From positions 1 through 45,453 of the forward strand of contig CBEVTC010000001.1 of NCBI GenBank assembly GCA_965552715.1: a stretch of 45,453 nucleotides of DNA, given 5' to 3'. The notes under the pieces were generated by a model. That model had not been told where the DNA came from. It was given only the letters and a program-made list of their open reading frames with translations, and did not search any database. The position numbers and the translations under genes are program-made. How positions within the stretch are numbered: position 1 is the first letter of the stretch; each line of letters starts with the position of its first letter. This DNA is from an uncultured archaeon. Its GTDB lineage: Archaea > Aenigmatarchaeota > Aenigmatarchaeia > QMZP01 > QMZT01. This document shows positions 2,190 to 45,453 of this stretch, piece after piece.

Positions 2190-3266
2190 TCATTTCAAAG
2201 CTATGAGAGCATCCGCAATCGAAGAGGCGTCTCCAATACCCGTTATGACTTTTGGTTCAGGCGTTACGTAAGCTGGGATCAACACGGAATCCTTCCCTTC
2301 AATCTTCTTCACCTCGTATCTATCGAGTTTCGAAACCCTCTCAAGGTTTTCCTTTATCCCCCCGAATAACTTTGCGGCTGGAACCTTCACGGAATACTCC
2401 CCTGCTTTCGAGTTTTTCTCCCTGTCCTTTCGGAAGAAGGTTAACCTGTATTTGATCGAATGGATCGTGAGCCTATCAAGACCGCTACTTTTCATGAATT
2501 CCGAGAAAAACCCCGGATTTTCGAGAGGATCGCCTTCGAAACCTATGAATTTCGTCTCGCATTCGTTCATGCCCAGCGAATTCAAAACCCCTTCATCCGT
2601 TAGTTTCTTGATCGCATATCTTATGGTTTCCGTCCCCTCGCCGAGCTCCAGGTGGACCTTGCATTTTTTCCCCGTCAGGATATCCGAGATTAAATCGACC
2701 TTATTCCTGTATGTAGGGGAAACCAAATGAAAACCGCAGAGCCAGAGCATATCCGCGAAATTTATGTTCTTCCAGAAATGTTCATCCAACCTGCATTCGT
2801 AAGAGGCGGGATCAAAGGTGAATATCTTCCTGTGATCTTTCCTTTCGAAAGATAAATGTTCGAATTCTGGATCGTCCATAATAGTTTCAAGAGGTTCAAC
2901 AAAACCTCTTTTGTTAGCCAATTCTATTCCTTTATGTTTGCTGAGCATTTCCATTATCGATTTAGGTCTTAAAGGACACGACAAAACACATGGAATTCCC
3001 AATTCGTTGAGAACTAGCGCCGCGTTACCTGCATTCCCCCCTATTTTCCTTATCCCTTTGAAATTCCCCTTCAAGAATTCGAAAAGTTCTTTGTCTATCA
3101 AACATTCGCAATCTTTTCGTTCGTTTTCCAGAACGTAAACTATCTCTCCGGGTTTCGAAAGTATCTCCTTTGAGGGTTTCACGGGCTCGATCCCTTCGAA
3201 TTTTTTTGTATCGTAATCGGTTATTATGGAATCCAGATTCGTGAACAAACCAACGAAAATCCTCAT
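2190..3266 (-). CDS. Ribokinase-superfamily sugar kinase, ADP-dependent PFK/GK-like (short form)
   Basis: Motifs FTNLDSII, GGNAGNAALVLNELG, HLELGEG, SLGMNECE and C-terminal TGIGDASS. Start taken at the ATG at 3266 (MRIFVGLF) rather than the ORF-track start. Confidence 0.5.
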   Translation of the reverse strand: MRIFVGLFTNLDSIITDYDTKKFEGIEPVKPSKEILSKPGEIVYVLENERKDCECLIDKELFEFLKGNFKGIRKIGGNAGNAALVLNELGIPCVLSCPLRPKSIMEMLSKHKGIELANKRGFVEPLETIMDDPEFEHLSFERKDHRKIFTFDPASYECRLDEHFWKNINFADMLWLCGFHLVSPTYRNKVDLISDILTGKKCKVHLELGEGTETIRYAIKKLTDEGVLNSLGMNECETKFIGFEGDPLENPGFFSEFMKSSGLDRLTIHSIKYRLTFFRKDREKNSKAGEYSVKVPAAKLFGGIKENLERVSKLDRYEVKKIEGKDSVLIPAYVTPEPKVITGIGDASSIADALIALK

Positions 3267-3364
3267 GTTTATAATTTCATTTTGGTTAATTAAAAACACC
3301 CGTAAAATCGCTCGAAAATACAGGTAAAAAACTTATATTACTAAAATACAATTTCAAAATCACA

Positions 3365-4633
3365 ATGAAAAATAAATTTAAGAACATCGGTTTCATCTCC
3401 ACGAGAATTGCAGGTACGGATGGAGTATCTTTAGAAATAGATAAGTGGGTTAAGGTTCTGGAGAGAAATAGGTATAATTGTTATTATTTTGCTGGAATAT
3501 CCGATAGACCACCCAAAAAATGCTTCCTGGTGAAAGAGGCTCATTTCGAGCATCCAAAAATCATGAAAATAAGGAAAGAATGTTTCGGGAATGAAGAGCG
3601 TTCCCCTAAAATCAGCAAACTGATTGAAAACTTGAAAAATCAGCTCAAGAAAAAAATCCAACAATTCGTTGAGAAGTTCGATGTGGACTTGATCATCCCT
3701 GAGAATGCGTTAGCCATCCCCATGAACATTCCCTTGGGTTTGGCGATTACGGACTTCATTGCTGAAACTGGTTTCCCCACAATAGCGCATCATCACGATT
3801 TTTATTGGGAAAGAAATCGCTTTCTGGTTAATTCTGTAAACGATTATCTGGACCGGGCATTCCCGCCAGATTTGCCATCTATCAAACATGTGGTGATAAA
3901 TTCCATTGCCAGCGAGGAGCTAAGTCACCGAAAGGGGATTTCAAACACCATTATTCCTAATGTCTACGATTTCGCTTCCCCTCCTTCCCGGTCGGACAGC
4001 CATTGCCCGGATCTGCGAAAGAGTATCGGATTAAAAGAAAACGATTTGTTCATCCTCCAGCCCACGCGCGTGGTCCCTCGTAAATGCATTGAAACATCGG
4101 TTGAACTTGTTCATCAAATGAAGCTGAAAAATCCCGTGCTCGTTATCTCCCATGCTAGCGGTGATGAGGGAAGCTCTTATTACGAAAACATCAAAGAATA
4201 CGCGAAAAATCTGGATGTGAAAATTGTTTCTATCAAGAAGATTATTGGACCTAAAAGAATGGAGAAAAGGGGGGGGAAGATTTATACCATAGGAGACGTG
4301 TATCTATGCGCGGATTTGGTAACATATCCTTCAAGTTATGAGGGATTTGGAAACGCCTTCCTTGAGGCAATTTATTATAGAAAACCTGTTGTTGTGAACA
4401 GATACCCGATTTACATCGTGGATATTGAACCAAAGAGATTCGATCTGATCGCCATCAATCGTTTTGTCACGAAAGAAACAATCAAAAAAATCAGAGAGAT
4501 TCTGAAAAACGAAAAAAGAAGGGAGAAAATGGTAGAAAAGAATTACCGTGTGGCGCTCAAGTATTTTTCTTATGAAGTGCTGGAGAATTCACTAAAAGAT
4601 ATCATCGAGGAGCTACAAAAAGAGGGGGAATGA
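3365..4633 (+). CDS. GT4-family (GT-B) glycosyltransferase
   Basis: 422 aa with the C-terminal E-x7-E motif SSYEGFGNAFLEAIYYRKPVVV. Confidence 0.65.
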   Translation: MKNKFKNIGFISTRIAGTDGVSLEIDKWVKVLERNRYNCYYFAGISDRPPKKCFLVKEAHFEHPKIMKIRKECFGNEERSPKISKLIENLKNQLKKKIQQFVEKFDVDLIIPENALAIPMNIPLGLAITDFIAETGFPTIAHHHDFYWERNRFLVNSVNDYLDRAFPPDLPSIKHVVINSIASEELSHRKGISNTIIPNVYDFASPPSRSDSHCPDLRKSIGLKENDLFILQPTRVVPRKCIETSVELVHQMKLKNPVLVISHASGDEGSSYYENIKEYAKNLDVKIVSIKKIIGPKRMEKRGGKIYTIGDVYLCADLVTYPSSYEGFGNAFLEAIYYRKPVVVNRYPIYIVDIEPKRFDLIAINRFVTKETIKKIREILKNEKRREKMVEKNYRVALKYFSYEVLENSLKDIIEELQKEGE

Positions 4634-16008: not shown

Positions 16009-16095
16009 ATGGCAGAAAAGGATGTGGCTTCCGTTATCAAGGAATTGATGAGGAAGCCTGAGCAGATTCGTAACATCGGGATTGTGGCGCACATA
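16009..16095 (+). CDS. fusA: Elongation factor 2, exon 1 (29 codons, ends inside the G1/P-loop motif)
   Basis: MAEKDVASVIKELMRKPEQIRNIGIVAHI, followed immediately by TGA. Confidence 0.85.
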
Positions 16096-16127
16096 TGATT
16101 CAGCTGTTTCTGCTGTTTCAGTGTTAA
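16096..16127 (+). other. 32-nt intervening sequence in the EF-2 gene; candidate BHB-type mRNA intron (equivalently 16095-16126)
   Basis: Not a multiple of 3. Starts with TGA and ends with TAA. Folds into a 4-bp helix flanked by two 3-nt bulges plus an inner hairpin. Removing it restores AHIDHGKTT. Confidence 0.6.
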
Positions 16128-18221
16128 GATCACGGTAAAACCACGCTAACTGATAACCTGCTCGCAGGGGCGGGGATGATCTCCGAGGAGCTCGCTGGAA
16201 AGCAGCTCGCGATGGATTTCGTGGAGCAGGAGCAGGAAAGGGGTATAACGATATATTCCGCGAACGTCAGCATGGTTCATGAGTGGGGAGGAAAGGACTA
16301 CCTGATTAATCTCATCGATACGCCCGGACACGTGGATTTCGGCGGGGATGTGACGCGCGCGATGAGAGCGGTGGATGGGGTTCTTGTCCTGATAGATGCA
16401 GTTGAGGCTGTTATGCCGCAGACCGAAACCGTTATCAGGCAAGCCTTGAAGGAAAGGGTAAAGCCGATTCTGTTCATAAACAAGGTTGACCGGTTGATAA
16501 AGGAGCTGAAGCTCACCCCCGAACAGATGCAGGAGAGATTCAAGAAGATTATAACCGAGGTCAACGTGCTCATGCAGAAATACGGGGAGAAGGAACTCGC
16601 TGACAAATGGATGGTTAACGTTAATGACGGGAGCGTTGCGTTCGGGTCTGCTGTGAGGAACTGGGCGATATCCGTTCCGTACATGCAGAAAACAAACATG
16701 ACGTTCAAGGACATAATAGATCTAACGAACAAAGGACCCGAAGGGGAGAAGGAACTCGCTAAGCGTTCGCCTCTCCACATTATAGTTCTGGATATGGTTA
16801 TTAAACATCTCGAAAATCCTTTGGTGGCGCAGAAATACCGTATACAGAAGATATGGCCGGGGGAAAGCGATTCGGAGATTGCGAAGGACATGGTGGATTG
16901 CAATCCCGATGGGAAGCTCGCAGCGATAGTTACGAAACTCTATCCCGATCCACATGCAGGTTACGTCGCGACAGTCCGTATTTTTTCAGGAAAGATGAAA
17001 ACAGGACAGGAAGTCTACCTTGTTAGCATGGACAAAATACAGAAGGTACAGCAGGTTTCCGTGTATAAAGGTCAGCAGAGGATAGGGATGGACGAGGTGG
17101 ATGCAGGGAACATCGTAGGGATTGTCGGTCTCAGGGAATCCTTCTCCGGTGAAACGATCTGTGACCCGGATTACGTAATCCCTGGCTTCGAAGCCATCAC
17201 GCACATATTCGAGCCTGTTGTTGTTAAGGCGATAGAACCAAAGAAACCACAGCAACTTGCGAAACTCATCGAATTCCTGAGAAGAGTCGCCAAAGAGGAT
17301 CCGACCCTCAGGGTTAAGATAAACGAGGAGACAGGAGAGTATCTGGTTTCAGGCCTCGGAGAACTGCACATAGACGCGAAAATAGAGAGGCCTTTGAAGG
17401 ACGAAGGTTTCGATGTGGATGTCTCGCCTCCAATCGTGATTTACAGGGAATCAGTAAGGGGGATCACGCCAGAAGCGATCGAGGGAAAATCCCCGAACAA
17501 GCACAACAGATTCTACGTCATAACCGAACCTCTGGAAGGGAAGGTTCATCGGGCCATGATAAGGGGGGAAGTCCCGTCTAACATAGAAGTCAAGAAAAAG
17601 GACGTTGAGTTGCAGAACAAGCTGGTTGACCTTGGGTTTGACAGGGATGAATCGAAAAAGGTAAAACTCATACACAACCGTAACGTGTTTCTTGACATGA
17701 CAAGGGGTGTCCACGCGATACTCGAGGTTATGGAGATGCTGAAGCAGTCTTTCACGGAAGCGATGGATGAAGGTCCGCTTGCAAGGGAACCCTGCGATGC
17801 GATAAAGGTCAAACTGATTGATGCGAAGCTTCACGAAGACGCGATACACAGGGGTCCTGCCCAGGTAATCCCCGCTGTACGTTCAGCCGTAAGGGATGCG
17901 ATGGTCTCGGGCAAGGCCTACATTCTCGAGCCTAAGCAGATCATAAGGATTGATGTCCCGACAGACAAGCTGAGCGGGGCGATGAAAGAGGTTCAGAACA
18001 GGCGTGGTCAAATCCTGGAAATGGGAGAGGAAAGGGGAACCACGAGTGTCACAGCGAAGCTTCCCGTTGCCGAGATGTTTGGTTTCAACTCGTCCCTGAA
18101 ATCCTCAACCGGGGGTCAGGGCTTCTACTGGCTGATAGACGTGGTTTACGAACCCCTGCCAAGGGATCTCTCACAAAAGGTAATAAGCCAGATAAAACAG
18201 AGAAAGGGAATAACTGAATGA
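16128..18221 (+). CDS. fusA: Elongation factor 2, exon 2 (697 codons)
   Basis: Begins DHGKTTLTDNLLAGAGMISEELAG, then DTPGHVDF and NKVDR, and continues through aEF-2 domains II-V to the stop at 18221. Confidence 0.9.
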   Translation, partial: DHGKTTLTDNLLAGAGMISEELAGKQLAMDFVEQEQERGITIYSANVSMVHEWGGKDYLINLIDTPGHVDFGGDVTRAMRAVDGVLVLIDAVEAVMPQTETVIRQALKERVKPILFINKVDRLIKELKLTPEQMQERFKKIITEVNVLMQKYGEKELADKWMVNVNDGSVAFGSAVRNWAISVPYMQKTNMTFKDIIDLTNKGPEGEKELAKRSPLHIIVLDMVIKHLENPLVAQKYRIQKIWPGESDSEIAKDMVDCNPDGKLAAIVTKLYPDPHAGYVATVRIFSGKMKTGQEVYLVSMDKIQKVQQVSVYKGQQRIGMDEVDAGNIVGIVGLRESFSGETICDPDYVIPGFEAITHIFEPVVVKAIEPKKPQQLAKLIEFLRRVAKEDPTLRVKINEETGEYLVSGLGELHIDAKIERPLKDEGFDVDVSPPIVIYRESVRGITPEAIEGKSPNKHNRFYVITEPLEGKVHRAMIRGEVPSNIEVKKKDVELQNKLVDLGFDRDESKKVKLIHNRNVFLDMTRGVHAILEVMEMLKQSFTEAMDEGPLAREPCDAIKVKLIDAKLHEDAIHRGPAQVIPAVRSAVRDAMVSGKAYILEPKQIIRIDVPTDKLSGAMKEVQNRRGQILEMGEERGTTSVTAKLPVAEMFGFNSSLKSSTGGQGFYWLIDVVYEPLPRDLSQKVISQIKQRKGITE

Positions 18222-42114: not shown

Positions 42115-42234
42115 ACGAGCACCGATTCTATATATTTGACAGATTTACATTTAAATAGATAACAAATGCTTTTAAATCAGCGAATTCAAATAAAATTATC
42201 AATTTTACCCGATTTTAAATTGGGTGAAGGGGGT

Positions 42235-42468
42235 ATGAAAATGCAGCAAAGACCGTTGGACGTTTTAGGAAGTTCGGAGAACAAGAGGATAATAATACAG
42301 GTTAAAAACAGGGATAAGATAACCGGAATTTTGAAGGCCTTTGATTCCCACCTGAACATATGGCTTGATGATGCGGAGGTTTCGAGCGCAGACGGAGAGA
42401 ATTCAGTGAAACTTGGGACAGTTCTTGTGAGAGGAGATAATATCGTTCTCATTTCTCCTGGGAAATAG
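42235..42468 (+). CDS. Sm-like archaeal protein (SmAP/LSm)
   Basis: [44 protein letters not shown]...[13 protein letters not shown]. The ATG at 42235 follows a GGGGG Shine-Dalgarno sequence. Paired with L37e, as is usual. Confidence 0.9.
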
Positions 42469-42506
42469 GAGTTAAAGTTTTTAAATATTCAATTTCAAGG
42501 GATACC

Positions 42507-42695
42507 ATGACGAAGGGAACCCCTAGTTTTGGCAAGAAGCAGAAGAAGACGCATGTTTTGTGTAGGAGATGCGGTCGCCATTCTTTCCACGCTTCGGGGG
42601 GCGTGTGTTCTGCCTGCGGTTTCGGGGGGTCGAAAAAAATCAAAAAATTCAAATGGCAGTGGAAACCGATCGAAAGAAACAAGAGAATGAAGTAA
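42507..42695 (+). CDS. rpl37e: Ribosomal protein eL37
   Basis: [32 protein letters not shown]. Confidence 0.9.
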
Positions 42696-42739
42696 AACCC
42701 ATATAAATATAACCACTTATTTATATGTTATTAGCACAT

Positions 42740-42768
42740 GACGACTTGGCTTTATGTTTCAGGTCGTC
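42740..42768 (+). repeat. GACG/CGUC hairpin copy H3 (GACGACTTG-11 nt AT-rich loop-CAGGTCGTC), 11 nt upstream of tRNA-Lys
   Basis: Same 11-mer TGACGACTTGG, loop length and spacing as H2. The single arm difference would be a U-G wobble in RNA. Confidence 0.7.
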
Positions 42769-42779
42769 TCCCTAAATAT

Positions 42780-42990
42780 GGGCCCGTAGCTCAATCGGCA
42801 GAGCACCAGACTCTTAAGAGCGTATGATGCAGGAACTAAAGGATGACGTACACAAAGTGTACGTCGATTGGAACTTCCTGCGTCATTCGAACCTCGGATA
42901 TTATGAAGGTTTCTAGAACCTTGTGATTGAGGGATATCTGGGGGTTGCGGGTTCGATACGTAGCTTTACGTGAAAATCCCGTCGGGCCCA
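42780..42990 (+). tRNA. tRNA-Lys(CUU) with two introns: 37/38 at 42817-42935 (119 nt) and 59/60 at 42958-42976 (19 nt)
   Basis: Acceptor stem GGGCCCG/CGGGCCC. D arm GCTC-AATCGGCA-GAGC. Anticodon stem CCAGA/TCTGG with loop CTCTTAA. T stem GCGGG/CCCGT with loop TTCGATT. The spliced length is 73 nt. Confidence 0.85.
42845..42865 (+). repeat. GACG/CGUC hairpin copy H4 (GACGTACAC-AAA-GTGTACGTC) inside the tRNA-Lys 119-nt intron
   Basis: Perfect 9-bp stem preceded by AT. The left arm differs from that of H6 at one position. Confidence 0.65.
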
Positions 42991-43018
42991 TACACCACTC
43001 AAAAAATAAGGATTGTAT

Positions 43019-43039
43019 GACGCAGGTCCCACCTGCGTC
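43019..43039 (+). repeat. GACG/CGUC hairpin copy H7 (GACGCAGGT-CCC-ACCTGCGTC), 29 nt downstream of tRNA-Lys
   Basis: Perfect 9-bp stem. Flanks are AT on the 5' side and TATCG on the 3' side; the 3' flank matches H6. Confidence 0.65.
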
Positions 43040-43049
43040 TATCGAAAAT

Positions 43050-43703
43050 TTACACTTCTTCGACCACAGAACCCATGATATTTTTTATCACTTTGTCCCC
43101 GCTTTTAAGAACAGGTTCCCCGTGCCCTGGAAGGATTTTATCGATCCTGAGGGAGGAGAGCCTTTCAAGCGATTTCTCGATATCCTCTTCACTCCCTCCC
43201 GGAAGATCTGTTCTCCCCACACCGTCAGCAAATATTGTGTCACCAGATAACAGGATATTGTCTTTCGAATCAAACAGGCATATCGAACCGGGGGTGTGTC
43301 CTGGCGTATGTAAAACCTTGAACCTGAAAACATCATCCCCTTCCTTCAGCTTCCTTTCGACTTTCATGGGTCTCATGTTCCCGTTGAAGTAGTGGGCATT
43401 GCTCATTTCGCTGTCCCCTTTCTCGAGAACATTCGAGTCCTTCTCATGTATGTGGACCTTCGCGTTCTTGAAGAAGCCGTTACCTCCTATGTGGTCCCAG
43501 TGCATGTGCGTGTTAACGATGTTCTTTATGTTGTCGAAATCGAGATTCATCTTCTTGAATATTTCGTAAAGGCGAACAAAATTCAATCCCGTCCCAGAGT
43601 CGACAATCGTGTCTCCGTCTATGAGGTATATGTTCGAATCCAGATCAGAAAGATGTACCATTGTTATCCTGCTGTTAATCTTGGTGACTAAATCCAACCC
43701 CAT
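43050..43703 (-). CDS. MBL-fold metallo-hydrolase (glyoxalase II-like)
   Basis: HMHWDHIGGN (HxHxDH) and HTPGHTPGS. The ATG at 43703 is preferred over the upstream TTG. Confidence 0.8.
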   Translation of the reverse strand: MGLDLVTKINSRITMVHLSDLDSNIYLIDGDTIVDSGTGLNFVRLYEIFKKMNLDFDNIKNIVNTHMHWDHIGGNGFFKNAKVHIHEKDSNVLEKGDSEMSNAHYFNGNMRPMKVERKLKEGDDVFRFKVLHTPGHTPGSICLFDSKDNILLSGDTIFADGVGRTDLPGGSEEDIEKSLERLSSLRIDKILPGHGEPVLKSGDKVIKNIMGSVVEEV

Positions 43704-43976: not shown

Positions 43977-44042
43977 GCTATCAATAAAGAATTAATAATC
44001 TTTCATTTATAAGCTTTTGACCCATTTGAGAAAATAAATGTT

Positions 44043-44368
44043 GTGCTGGGCATAGCCCATTTTCTGTCATCTCGCAGGCTTTGACGCCTGAACGAGGCGA
44101 TAGCATTTTTCTAACTCGTCCCTTTATTTTTCGGGACTTTCACCCGCACGACCCGAACTCTTTCACCCTCCTGCTTCTTCGATGCTTTCCCTTTCGGGAT
44201 CATCGCTCCAAAGCGAAGGTTTATTTCTGCGTCCGGACAGGTCCTCTCGGACCCTGCCTTGCGACAGCGTACCTTTCGAAAGACGTTCGCAAGCGAACGT
44301 CAATCTATCGGGTGCCTGGAACTTACCTCCCCGAGTCGCCTCAGGGCAAGCTATCTGCCCAGCTCAAC
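44043..44368 (-). ncRNA. rnpB: RNase P RNA (compact archaeal type, about 325 nt)
   Basis: On the minus strand: P1 is GCUGGGCA(5')/UGCCCAGC(3'); the P3 hairpin is CCCUGAG-GCGA-CUCGGGG; the CR-I-like element is GGAGGUAAGUUCC; the CR-II-like element is AGGGUGAAAG; the CR-IV/V-like element is GAGAUGACAGAAAAUGGGCUAU. A TATA-like TTTTTAAA lies at 44398-44391. Confidence 0.8.
44282..44301 (-). repeat. GACG/CGUC hairpin copy H5 (GACGUUCGC-UU-GCGAACGUC) forming a helix of RNase P RNA
   Basis: Read on the minus (sense) strand it is UUGACGUUCGCUUGCGAACGUCUU, near-identical to H1. Confidence 0.65.
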
Positions 44369-44945: not shown

Positions 44946-45084
44946 GATCGGAAATGTATTCTGATTAATGATCTGTTTATAGCTTGGACTAATACTTTTT
45001 CTTTGGTCAACCGATTTCTTGAATAAGCGGAAGCTATCGTAAAGAAAGTGGTTGGCGAGTTGTCCTTTTAACTAGGATCTGTCA

Positions 45085-45453
45085 GGGTATTGGGTAACGT
45101 GGGCTGAATACCTCGCCGAAGCTTGGTACTTACACCCCGTTTCCATCAACCTTGTCGTATACAAGACCTTCCCCAGCGCACCGATACTCGCGTATCAGGT
45201 TGCTGGATGGTTACCTATTTTCAGGAGAGGCTTCGGGCTTAGATGCTTTCAGCCCTTATCCTCAATGGCGTAGCTACCCGGCAATGTTTTACGCAACCGG
45301 TACACCAGAGGCCACAACGCACTGTTCCTTTCGTACTGAGTGCTTTTTCCCCTCAAGTAACCAACACCTTCAGCAGATATAGACCGTACTGGCTCGCACC
45401 GTACTTAACCCAGCTAACGTGGCTCTTTGATGGGTGAACACCCCCACCCTTGG
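45085..45453 (-). rRNA. 23S rRNA 3'-terminal region (domain V/VI), partial; continues beyond the window
   Basis: The minus strand reads ...GAGCCACGUUAGCUGGGUU..., then the sarcin-ricin region CAGUACGAAAGGAAC, then GGGCUGAAAGCAUCUAAGCCCGAAGCC. The 3' end is approximate. Confidence 0.9.

What the first reader, a model, noticed from the sequence alone, without database searches (positions are those of the whole stretch)
16095..16127. 32-nt BHB-like intron splitting the P-loop codons of elongation factor 2
Seen in sequence: the ORF from the ATG at 16009 encodes MAEKDVASVIKELMRKPEQIRNIGIVAHI and stops at the TGA at 16096. Thirty-two nt later, in a different frame, reading resumes with DHGKTTLTDNLLAGAGM and runs about 697 codons to 18221. 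Deleting exactly 32 nt (16096-16127, or equivalently 16095-16126) recreates the universal GTPase G1 motif AHIDHGKTT and a normal-length aEF-2 of about 726 aa. The insert starts with TGA and ends with TAA, so neither frame can read through. It folds like a bulge-helix-bulge motif. The central 4-bp helix is GCAC (16089-16092) paired with GUGU (16121-16124). Two 3-nt bulges, AUA (16093-16095) and UAA (16125-16127), lie on opposite strands. The inner stem is UGA/UCA plus CAGC/GCUG, closed by a 7-nt loop. Cuts after the second bulge nucleotide give the in-frame junction. The outer exon-exon helix is weak, so this would be a relaxed BHB. The tRNA introns in this window use the same geometry. Established knowledge: BHB introns are excised by the archaeal tRNA splicing endonuclease, and known mRNA cases are essentially limited to cbf5 in Crenarchaeota. 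Inference: production of an essential translation GTPase would depend on endonuclease and RtcB splicing of its mRNA.
Basis: partly seen in the sequence, partly recalled or inferred. Interest (0 to 1): 0.9.

Follow-up and report, generated by a model that had tools for sequence, protein, structure and literature searches.

The report
Splicing-endonuclease intron inside archaeal EF-2 gene
The gene for the essential translation factor EF-2 in this DPANN archaeon is interrupted, in its GTP-binding-loop codons, by a 32-base intron of the type cut out by the tRNA-splicing enzyme, and related introns occupy the same spot in many other DPANN archaea, although only one archaeal protein-coding gene (cbf5) was previously reported to carry such an intron.

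Summary
EF-2 (window 16009-18221, +) is broken by 32 nt between AHI and DHGKTT, and neither reading frame can pass the insert. Removing 16095-16126 gives a normal 726-aa EF-2.

Structure alone is not significant for this one sequence (z = -1.0; the BHB register lies 2.6 kcal/mol above the MFE). Comparative data carry the case:
- 25 distinct 28-34-nt inserts sit at exactly this codon in Aenigmatarchaeota and Woesearchaeota/Nanoarchaeota EF-2 genes, from many independent assemblies.
- All fold as a 4-bp helix, 3-nt bulges and an abutting inner stem, with strong covariation (88.9% paired vs 30-43% when slid; score 0.575 vs 0.20; 0/500 shuffles).
- RNAalifold finds the same register de novo.
- Relatives carry further BHB introns at DHG|KTT, GHVD|FGG and GGDV|TRAM, leaving 11-15-nt micro-exons. 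One cut rule restores the frame every time.
- dN/dS is 0.03, so these are not pseudogenes.

A 97.5%-identical relative lacks the intron, so it is gained or lost quickly. No RNA-level evidence was available, and endA/rtcB are not in the window. I found no published report, and file it as a new member of the BHB pre-mRNA intron kind (cbf5).

The parts
16009..16094 (+). EF-2 exon 1: ATG through the first two bases of the Ile29 codon; encodes MAEKDVASVIKELMRKPEQIRNIGIVAH + AU
   Evidence: the N-terminus aligns with 726-aa EF-2 relatives
16081..16088 (+). 5' strand of the imperfect exon-exon outer helix (h). It pairs with 16128 and 16130-16136, with A16129 bulged.
   Evidence: BHB-constrained fold. 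Only the C16088-G16128 pair is invariant across the family.
16089..16092 (+). 5' strand of the central 4-bp helix (GCAC). It is exonic: the last base of the Ala codon plus the His codon.
   Evidence: columns 7-10 pair with 42-45 in 25/25 sequences
16093..16095 (+). 5' bulge AUA; predicted 5' cut between 16094 and 16095
   Evidence: unpaired in the RNAalifold consensus
16095..16126 (+). The intron as excised under the canonical rule (32 nt). Removing 16096-16127 gives the same product.
   Evidence: 27/33 positions identical to the introns of L037, L128 and L058
16096..16120 (+). Inner helix h' and loop: UGA 16096-98 with UCA 16118-20, a UU/UU mismatch, CAGC 16101-04 with GCUG 16112-15, and the 7-nt loop 16105-11
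   Evidence: all 9 inner pairs covary in the family
16121..16124 (+). 3' strand of the central helix (GUGU); intronic
16125..16127 (+). 3' bulge UAA; predicted 3' cut between 16126 and 16127. A16127 becomes the third base of the Ile29 codon.
   Evidence: this position is A or U in 25/25 sequences, which keeps Ile
16127..18221 (+). EF-2 exon 2: the third base of Ile29, then DHGKTT... through the stop codon

Best explanation
The 32 nt at 16095-16126 are a bulge-helix-bulge (BHB) intron in the pre-mRNA of the single, functional EF-2 gene of a Candidatus Aenigmatarchaeota (DPANN) archaeon.

Proposed mechanism:
1. In the transcript, exon bases GCAC (Ala/His codons) pair with intron bases GUGU to form the 4-bp central helix.
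2. Two 3-nt bulges, AUA and UAA, flank that helix on opposite strands. An intron-internal hairpin abuts one side, and an imperfect exon-exon helix abuts the other.
3. The archaeal RNA-splicing endonuclease EndA cuts after the second nucleotide of each bulge.
4. An RtcB-type ligase joins AU|A-GAU, recreating ...AHI-DHGKTT... and a 726-aa EF-2. The intron is released, probably as a circle.

Shown here: the interruption, the conserved BHB geometry with covariation, exact frame restoration, purifying selection on interrupted genes, and recurrence in many independent assemblies.

Inferred: the enzymes, the actual cleavage and ligation, and any regulatory role.

The intron belongs to a family that occupies conserved GTPase-motif codons of EF-2 across DPANN and is gained or lost on short time scales.
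For: 1. Same site, many lineages. A pattern scan of metagenomes plus the genome scan gave 25 distinct 28-34-nt inserts exactly between AHI and DHGKTT. They occur in EF-2 genes of Aenigmatarchaeota-like and Woesearchaeota/Nanoarchaeota-like organisms that are only 53-56% identical in protein.

2. Structure.
- On alignment A1, 88.9% of cells pair, against 30-43% when partners are slid by 1-3 columns.
- The covariation score is 0.575 against 0.20 for shuffles (0/500 reach it).
- 9 of 9 inner-helix pairs change on both sides.
- RNAalifold predicts the same register de novo.
- Internal control: 23/23 real EF-2 inserts have at least 3 contiguous inner pairs starting at the bulges, against 8/66 chance matches to the same search pattern.

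3. One cut rule restores the frame in six independent cases: the window, three introns in L036 and two in lineage B. The chance of a BHB at a given register is about 0.001. At site 2, a C-G to U-A compensatory change links the His codon to the intron.

4. All eight introns whose length is a multiple of 3 carry in-frame stops, and the rest shift the frame. So none can be translated through.

5. The genes are functional. dN/dS is 0.032 (window vs L037) and 0.039 (L037 vs L128) with synonymous sites near saturation. The gene sits in the conserved S12-S7-EF-2 context.

6. It is not an artefact. Lineage B shows identical junction DNA in 8 samples from ENA, JGI and Logan. The marine allele P0242 is on at least 24 contigs. 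The window's intron is 27/33 identical to those of L037, L128 and L058.

7. DPANN EndA enzymes are reported to carry loops associated with broad substrate specificity (PMC5829648).
Against: - There is no transcript-level evidence, either a spliced junction or a circular intron.
- endA and rtcB are not in the 45-kb window, so their presence and type in this genome are unverified.
- For the window sequence alone, the BHB conformation is not the MFE (-17.0 vs -19.6 kcal/mol), and the fold is no more stable than shuffles. Only 11 of 25 family members have the exact BHB as their own MFE.
- The outer exon-exon helix is interrupted and not conserved in register, so the motif is not a textbook hBHBh'.
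- The central helix and the 3-nt 3' bulge were imposed by my metagenome search pattern. For the 22 introns ascertained only by that scan they are therefore not independent evidence. They are independent for the window, L036 and lineage B, which were found by protein similarity.
- The closest relative, L001, lacks the intron. The intron is therefore dispensable, and its history is unclear.
Confidence: 0.85

Rival explanations
1. Translational bypassing (hopping): the insert stays in the mRNA and the ribosome skips it. Known examples are the 50-nt gap of phage T4 gene 60 and the 'byp' elements of Magnusiomyces mitochondria.
For: - The insert is short and contains a hairpin.
- In the Aenigmatarchaeota-type sequences a stop codon directly follows the Ile codon: 'I*' in 11 of 25 sequences. 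This resembles the gene 60 take-off site.
Against: - Bypassing needs matching take-off and landing codons. The codon before GAY is UAA, AGA, UUA, UUU, AGU, CUA, UGA, UAU or UGU, and matches an Ile codon in only 1 of 25.
- The conserved features are the exon-intron 4-bp helix and the two 3-nt bulges at fixed spacing. Bypassing has no use for these, and they are exactly what EndA recognises.
- The stop directly after Ile is absent in the Woesearchaeota-type introns.
- Two or three such elements lie 11-15 nt apart, which would require consecutive hops.
Confidence: 0.04
2. A decaying or inactivated EF-2 gene: the insert is a disabling insertion and EF-2 function comes from another copy.
For: - The gene cannot be translated as written.
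- The rest of this genome was not available, so a second copy cannot be excluded directly.
- A near-identical relative has an intact gene.
Against: - dN/dS is 0.03-0.04 between interrupted genes whose synonymous sites are saturated. They have been kept functional for a long time while carrying the insert.
- Apart from the BHB inserts, no other frame disruption occurs anywhere in the 690+ codons in any of the full-length interrupted genes I reconstructed (window, L036, L037).
- The gene occupies the canonical S12-S7-EF-2 position.
- The genome scan found only one EF-2 locus per assembly, including for L036.
- Random disabling insertions would not show a conserved, covarying BHB at one codon in 25 lineages.
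Confidence: 0.04
3. An RNA-level removal that does not use EndA and RtcB, for example another structure-specific nuclease and ligase, or an unknown editing or repair pathway that recognises the hairpin.
For: - The enzymes were not identified in this window.
- The outer helix is non-canonical.
- The BHB is not the MFE for 14 of 25 sequences.
Against: - The conserved elements (a 4-bp helix, two 3-nt bulges on opposite strands, and symmetric cut positions that restore the frame) are the defining recognition features of EndA. No other pathway is known to need them (established knowledge; PMC7714728, PMC5829648).
- Every archaeon studied so far has EndA.
Confidence: 0.05
4. An assembly or sequencing artefact: a spurious 32-nt insertion in this contig.
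For: The 97.5%-identical contig L001 lacks exactly these 32 nt.
Against: - The insert is homologous (27/33 positions) to inserts at the same codon in independently assembled contigs from other samples and assemblers.
- It has the family's conserved structure. An artefact would not reproduce a covarying RNA motif.
Confidence: 0.01

Closest known systems
cbf5 pre-mRNA intron of Crenarchaeota (Desulfurococcales and Sulfolobales; Watanabe 2002, Yokobori 2009, PMC2738675)
   Same: - Both are short BHB-type introns inside a protein-coding ORF of an archaeon.
- Both interrupt a codon of a functionally essential motif: the catalytic residue in Cbf5, the P-loop here.
- Both are presumed to be removed by the tRNA-splicing endonuclease and ligase.
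- Both show lineage-specific presence and absence, with secondary loss.
   Different: - The host gene differs: EF-2, an essential translational GTPase.
- The lineages differ: the DPANN groups Aenigmatarchaeota and Woesearchaeota/Nanoarchaeota.
- One gene can carry up to three introns, separated by 11-15-nt micro-exons.
- Presence or absence varies between genomes about 97.5% identical, and between alleles within marine populations.
- cbf5 splicing was shown by RT-PCR. This case is supported only by comparative sequence analysis.
Archaeal tRNA and rRNA BHB introns (EndA substrates; canonical hBHBh' and relaxed forms)
   Same: - The core is the same: a 4-bp helix flanked by two 3-nt bulges on opposite strands.
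- The cuts fall at symmetric positions in the bulges.
- As in tRNA introns at position 37/38, the central helix is formed by 5'-exon bases pairing with 3'-intron bases.
   Different: - The host is an mRNA.
- The exonic half of the helix is fixed by the Ala-His codons.
- The outer helix is one invariant C-G pair followed by an interrupted helix.
- The introns are very short (27-35 nt) and carry no ORF.
BHB intron in the 5' UTR of Haloferax volcanii HVO_1309 mRNA (PMC7714728)
   Same: It is an mRNA substrate of EndA, and removal of the intron matters for expression.
   Different: That intron lies in the untranslated leader and does not interrupt the reading frame. It is a single case in a euryarchaeon.
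Inteins in the EF-2 P-loop (for example L032, P0073, P0113 and P0196 found here)
   Same: They are intervening elements inserted in the same conserved GTPase G1 motif. The L032 intein sits at AHIDHGK|C...HN|TT, one nucleotide from the site-2 intron. They have the same patchy distribution, which is typical of selfish elements that target conserved sites.
   Different: Inteins are translated and removed at the protein level. They are about 500 aa long and carry a LAGLIDADG homing endonuclease. The BHB introns are about 30 nt, non-coding and removed from RNA.

Membership tests
Archaeal BHB intron (EndA substrate) | Two 3-nt bulges on opposite strands, separated by a 4-bp helix | tested here: met
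   Window: GCAC/GUGU with bulges AUA and UAA. Family: 100% of the central-helix cells pair, and the bulge columns are unpaired in the de novo consensus. Caveat: for the scan-derived sequences, the helix and the 3' bulge length were imposed by the search pattern.
Archaeal BHB intron (EndA substrate) | An inner helix (h') directly abutting the 5' bulge and the 3' strand of the central helix | tested here: met
   The inner helix starts at the first position in 25/25 and has at least 3 contiguous pairs in 24/25. Among scan-derived sequences this holds for 23/23 EF-2 inserts against 8/66 chance matches. All 9 pairs covary.
Archaeal BHB intron (EndA substrate) | An outer exon-exon helix (h) abutting the 3' bulge, as in the canonical hBHBh' | tested here: inconclusive
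   Only one invariant C-G pair lies in strict register. In the window a 7-bp continuation follows a 1-nt bulge. In other members the register differs. This amounts to a relaxed or imperfect h.
Archaeal BHB intron (EndA substrate) | Cuts at symmetric bulge positions yield a functional ligated product | tested here: met
   In silico only. Cutting after bulge nucleotide 2 restores AHIDHGKTT and a full-length ORF in the window, in L036 (3 introns) and in L037 (2 introns).
Archaeal BHB intron (EndA substrate) | Actual cleavage by EndA (2',3'-cyclic phosphate and 5'-OH ends) and ligation by RtcB, with a circular intron released | not testable with these tools
   This needs RNA-seq, RT-PCR or an in vitro assay.
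Archaeal BHB intron (EndA substrate) | The genome encodes EndA and an RtcB-type ligase | not testable with these tools
   Neither gene is in the 45-kb window (Pfam scans of 20 ORFs). The rest of the genome was not available. The literature reports EndA in the DPANN genomes examined (PMC5829648).
cbf5-type pre-mRNA intron | A BHB intron inside a protein-coding ORF that interrupts an essential motif codon | tested here: met
   It lies between the second and third base of the Ile29 codon of the P-loop motif AHIDHGKTT.
cbf5-type pre-mRNA intron | The host gene is cbf5 and the host lineage is Crenarchaeota | tested here: not met
   The host is EF-2 (Pfam GTP_EFTU, EFG_III, EFG_IV and EFG_C in relatives). 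The organism is Aenigmatarchaeota. It is therefore a different intron family of the same mechanistic kind.
Translational bypass element (T4 gene 60 / mitochondrial byp) | Matching take-off and landing codons flank the skipped segment | tested here: not met
   The landing codon matches an Ile codon in only 1 of 25 family members. In the window the pair is AUA vs UAA.
Self-splicing group I / group II intron | A catalytic core of hundreds of nucleotides that is recognisable by covariance models | tested here: not met
   The insert is 32 nt, and Rfam gives no hit at E <= 0.5 in this region.

The most novel reading that the evidence does not exclude
These are not isolated relics. They form a family of tiny (27-35 nt), ORF-less BHB introns that behave as mobile elements across DPANN phyla.
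- They repeatedly occupy the most conserved GTPase-motif codons of EF-2: G1 at AHI|DHG and DHG|KTT, and G3/switch II at GHVD|FGG and GGDV|TRAM. There the exon sequence itself supplies half of the recognition helix.
- They are gained and lost by recombination between alleles. The window carries the intron while being nested inside an intron-less clade. Its intron is about 82% identical to those of relatives whose synonymous sites are saturated. Clusters of differences, or recombination breakpoints, lie next to the insertion site.
- They can pile up until exons of only 11-15 nt remain.

This would make EF-2 synthesis, and so translation capacity, depend on the tRNA-splicing machinery in many DPANN archaea. 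It would also give a living example of protein-dependent mRNA introns spreading in a prokaryote.
Probability: 0.35. Interest if true: 0.88.

Novelty: new member of a known kind. Interest (0 to 1): 0.78.

Why it matters
- For more than twenty years the literature has listed a single archaeal protein-coding gene (cbf5, in Crenarchaeota) with a BHB intron in its reading frame, plus one 5'-UTR case. A second, widespread family in the universal and essential EF-2 gene of DPANN archaea would show that endonuclease-dependent mRNA splicing is not a crenarchaeal oddity.
- With up to three introns per gene and 11-15-nt micro-exons, it gives a tractable system for asking how protein-spliced introns arise, spread and are lost in prokaryotes. 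That question bears on theories of intron origin.
- The strain-level presence/absence variation makes gain and loss directly observable.
- There is a practical consequence. Gene callers currently output truncated or chimeric EF-2 proteins, and orphan mini-ORFs, for these genomes. EF-2 is a standard phylogenetic and completeness marker, so DPANN annotations and marker sets are affected.

Tried and rejected
- Single-sequence folding as evidence: not significant (z = -1.04), and the MFE uses a shifted helix. I relied on comparative data instead.
- A window-wide scan for BHB motifs that fuse ORFs: far too permissive (3,264 hits) and uninformative. I replaced it with a codon-usage gene map, which showed no other obviously split gene. 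Neighbouring genes in syntenic loci are uninterrupted.
- A hunt for a spliced transcript. The full-length protein P0121/L152, identical to the intron-bearing L123 product, turned out to be a different genomic allele: it differs at the DNA level and in exon 1. P0243 and P0242 both lie on long genomic contigs. So no RNA evidence was obtained.
- LepA-like loci (L066, L069, L105) with an insert at the same codon. These are eukaryotic GUF1 genes with GT-AG spliceosomal introns, matched my pattern by chance, and are unrelated.
- A test of whether the window acquired a donor-like tract together with its intron. The 8 clustered differences from L001 at +20 to +53 mostly look derived in L001, not in the window. 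That hints at loss in L001, but the direction stays unresolved.
- Looking for endA or rtcB in the window: absent.
- Frameshifting, an intein and self-splicing introns were considered and rejected. There are stops in all frames, the insert is too short, and it has no Rfam match.

Full report
**1. The observation**

The window comes from a Candidatus Aenigmatarchaeota (DPANN) genome. The nearest public contig, JAGMCY010000160.1 (L001), is 97.3-97.9% identical over 8 kb.

The sequence shows the following:
- The ATG at 16009 opens a 29-codon ORF (MAEKDVASVIKELMRKPEQIRNIGIVAHI) that ends at TGA 16096-98.
- From 16128, in another frame, DHGKTTLTDNLL... runs to the stop at 18221.
- The intervening 32 nt (TGATTCAGCTGTTTCTGCTGTTTCAGTGTTAA) start with TGA. 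They end with TAA directly before GAT, and the third frame stops at 16136-38. So no read-through or frameshift can produce the protein.
- Deleting 32 nt gives a 726-aa protein that matches 726-aa EF-2 proteins end to end, with 92% identity to the best cluster representative.

One side remark fails. There is no detectable tRNA gene in the window, with or without introns.

**2. Is the structure more than chance?**

For this sequence alone it is not.
- The 81-nt region folds no better than shuffles (z = -1.04).
- The MFE uses a helix shifted by one position. With the BHB pairs enforced, the fold is -17.0 vs -19.6 kcal/mol.
- That constrained fold shows that an exon-exon outer helix can form: C16088-G16128, A16129 bulged, then 16081-87 with 16130-36.
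- A given pair of cut positions forms a BHB (4/4 helix pairs and 3 inner pairs) with probability about 0.001 in this window. Two registers restore the frame, and one of them is a BHB.

**3. Comparative evidence**

Among 36 species-representative relatives, 35 read AHIDHGKTT without interruption, including L001. Several lines then point the same way.

*Other interrupted lineages found by protein similarity:*
- L036 (JAUWZW010000005.1, about 74% identical) has a 33-nt insert at the same codon. The sequence differs but the design is the same: GCAC/GUGC, bulges AUU and AGA, and an inner stem AUUAGC/GCUAAU.
- A lineage 85% identical to the window (P0026/P0032; loci L037-L044) has a 33-nt insert that is clearly homologous to the window's. 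Its junction DNA is identical on contigs from 8 independent samples in ENA, JGI and Logan.

*A targeted metagenome scan* (exon anchor, gap, 3' helix strand, 3-nt bulge, DHGK) brought the total to 25 distinct introns of 28-34 nt at exactly this site. They fall into two host groups:
- an Aenigmatarchaeota-like group;
- a group only 53-56% identical in protein, whose relatives are annotated Woesearchaeota or Nanoarchaeota.

*Pairing and covariation on the MAFFT alignment A1*:
- 88.9% of cells pair, against 30-43% when partners are slid by 1-3 columns.
- The covariation score is 0.575, against 0.20 ± 0.02 for shuffles (0/500 reach it).
- All nine inner-helix pairs change on both sides.

*Independent checks:*
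- RNAalifold predicts the same structure de novo: a 4-bp helix, three unpaired nt, and the inner helix abutting it.
- The central helix and the 3' bulge were imposed by my search pattern, so I used the inner helix as the independent test. All 23 scan-derived EF-2 inserts have at least 3 contiguous pairs starting at the bulges, against 8 of 66 chance matches to the same pattern.
- The base that becomes the wobble position of the Ile codon after splicing is A or U in 25/25.
- All eight introns whose length is a multiple of three contain in-frame stops, and the others shift the frame.

**4. More introns in the same gene**

Relatives carry further inserts, always in GTPase-motif codons:

| Locus | Site | Length | Central helix | Other features |
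|---|---|---|---|---|
| Lineage B (L037) | DHG\|KTT | 35 nt | ACGG/CCGC, 3 of 4 pairs | leaves an 11-nt micro-exon |
| L082, L091, L137 (Woesearchaeota-type) | DHG\|KTT | 31 nt | AUGG/CCAC, 3 of 4 pairs | compensatory C-G to U-A change between the His codon and the intron |
| L036 | GHVD\|FGG | 35 nt | GUCG/CGAC | bulges AUA and AGU |
| L036 | GGDV\|TRAM | 27 nt | GACG/CGUU | bulges UAU and AAA; 7-bp inner and 5-bp outer helices |

The two extra L036 introns are separated by a 15-nt micro-exon.

Applying one rule, cutting after the second bulge nucleotide, to every insert yields uninterrupted ORFs with all motifs intact: about 730 codons for L036 and 726 for L037. Flanking genes in syntenic loci are not interrupted.

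**5. Rivals**

*Pseudogene.* dN/dS is 0.032 (window vs L037) and 0.039 (L037 vs L128) with synonymous sites near saturation. There are no disruptions other than the BHB inserts. The gene sits in the canonical S12-S7-EF-2 position. Each assembly in the genome scan contributed a single EF-2 locus.

*Assembly artefact.* This is excluded by recurrence across samples and assemblers, and by the intron's homology (27/33 positions) to those of L037, L128 and L058.

*Translational bypassing.* The landing codon matches the take-off Ile codon in only 1 of 25. What is conserved is the EndA recognition geometry, which bypassing does not need.

*Self-splicing intron, intein or frameshift.* These are excluded by size, by stops in every frame and by the lack of any Rfam match.

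What remains unproven is the RNA-level event itself and the identity of the enzymes. Neither endA nor rtcB lies in the window. My attempts to find spliced transcripts turned up only intron-less genomic alleles.

**6. Dynamics**

- The window and L001 differ structurally only by the 32 nt.
- In 90 nt upstream they differ at one position. At +20 to +53 nt downstream they differ at eight synonymous positions. Across the next ~125 nt they differ at one. At most of those positions L001 looks like the derived sequence, which hints at intron loss through recombination. The direction is not settled.
- On an EF-2 tree, the window is nested inside an intron-less clade, and its nearest intron-bearing relatives (L037, L128) belong to a different clade. 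Vertical inheritance would need at least five losses, against one lateral gain. One caveat is ascertainment: intron-less sequences came from species representatives, and intron-bearing ones from a targeted scan.
- The introns are about 82% identical between hosts whose synonymous sites are saturated.
- In marine Woesearchaeota, intron-bearing (P0242, at least 24 contigs) and intron-less (P0243, at least 13 contigs) alleles encode identical exon-2 proteins. Their sequence identity switches from about 75% to 100% roughly 90 nt 3' of the insertion site, and the upstream gene context differs.
- Taken together, this fits an element that moves or is removed by recombination. That reading is inference.

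**7. Comparison with what is known**

The literature I could search names a single coding-region BHB intron in Archaea, in cbf5 of Crenarchaeota, plus a 5'-UTR intron in Haloferax HVO_1309 (PMC7714728, PMC2738675, PMC12397907). Searches combining BHB or intron terms with EF-2, DPANN or Woesearchaeota found nothing relevant. Subscription-only literature was not covered.

Like the cbf5 intron, this one interrupts an essential motif codon and shows lineage-specific loss. It differs in host gene, in phylum, in the number of introns per gene, in the micro-exons and in its strain-level polymorphism.

DPANN EndA enzymes are reported to carry an extra loop associated with broad substrate range (PMC5829648). 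That would accommodate the imperfect outer helix.

I therefore classify it as a new member of a known mechanistic kind.

**8. Verdict**

- The BHB-intron interpretation is supported with high but not experimental confidence (0.85).
- The tRNA remark is unsupported.
- The finding deserves follow-up with transcript data and an EndA assay.

Noticed in passing
L036:3078-3110, 3322-3356, 3372-3398: One Aenigmatarchaeota MAG (JAUWZW010000005.1) has three BHB introns in EF-2, of 33, 35 and 27 nt. They sit at AHI|DHG, GHVD|FGG and GGDV|TRAM. A 15-nt micro-exon (TTTGGCGGGGACGTA) lies between the last two. Splicing all three gives an intact ORF of about 730 codons.
   Followed up: yes
L037:3001-3033 and 3045-3079 (identical in L038-L044 and L052): A lineage 85% identical to the window has two introns in the P-loop codons, separated by an 11-nt micro-exon (AGACCACGGAA). 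The same junction DNA is seen in 8 independent samples. Woesearchaeota-type loci L082, L091 and L137 have the same two-intron arrangement.
   Followed up: yes
window 16128-16181 compared with L001: Eight synonymous differences from the 97.5%-identical, intron-less relative cluster at +20 to +53 nt from the insertion site, while the flanks are almost identical. This may be a recombination tract linked to intron gain or loss. The direction is unresolved.
   Followed up: partly
L153 (P0243, no intron) vs L157 (P0242, intron); L152 vs L123: Marine Woesearchaeota populations hold intron-less and intron-bearing EF-2 alleles with identical exon-2 protein and identical downstream genes. The upstream genes are different. 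Sequence identity jumps from about 75% to 100% roughly 90 nt 3' of the insertion site.
   Followed up: partly
L032:1369-5085 (also P0073, P0113, P0196): Some EF-2 genes carry a LAGLIDADG intein inserted at AHIDHGK|C...HN|TTLTDNLL. That is one nucleotide from the site-2 BHB intron and three codons from site 1. The P-loop codons therefore attract both inteins and BHB introns.
   Followed up: partly
P0026, P0032, P0242, P0183, P0191 and others; 48-aa and 30-aa ORFs upstream in L037 and L157: Public gene calls for these loci are wrong in a systematic way. EF-2 is truncated to about 681 aa starting at an internal Met, or given a chimeric N-terminus (P0026). Exon 1 is called as an orphan mini-ORF. 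About 11 of the 120 best Woesearchaeota-type hits are such truncated calls.
   Followed up: partly
L066, L069, L105: LepA/GUF1-like genes with an insert 2 nt from the same codon position matched my search pattern. They are eukaryotic genes with ordinary GT-AG spliceosomal introns, so this is a coincidence and not related.
   Followed up: yes
window 44041-44367 (-): An archaeal RNase P RNA matching the full-length model at 73 bits, below Rfam's gathering score of 84, with E = 1.5e-19. The 3' end of the 23S rRNA lies at 45070-45453 (-).
   Followed up: no
window 42144-43050: About 900 nt with no convincing ORF by codon usage and no Rfam match. The content is unexplained.
   Followed up: no
window 1-45453: No tRNA gene is detectable anywhere in the window by ARAGORN (with or without introns) or by Rfam at relaxed thresholds.
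   Followed up: yes
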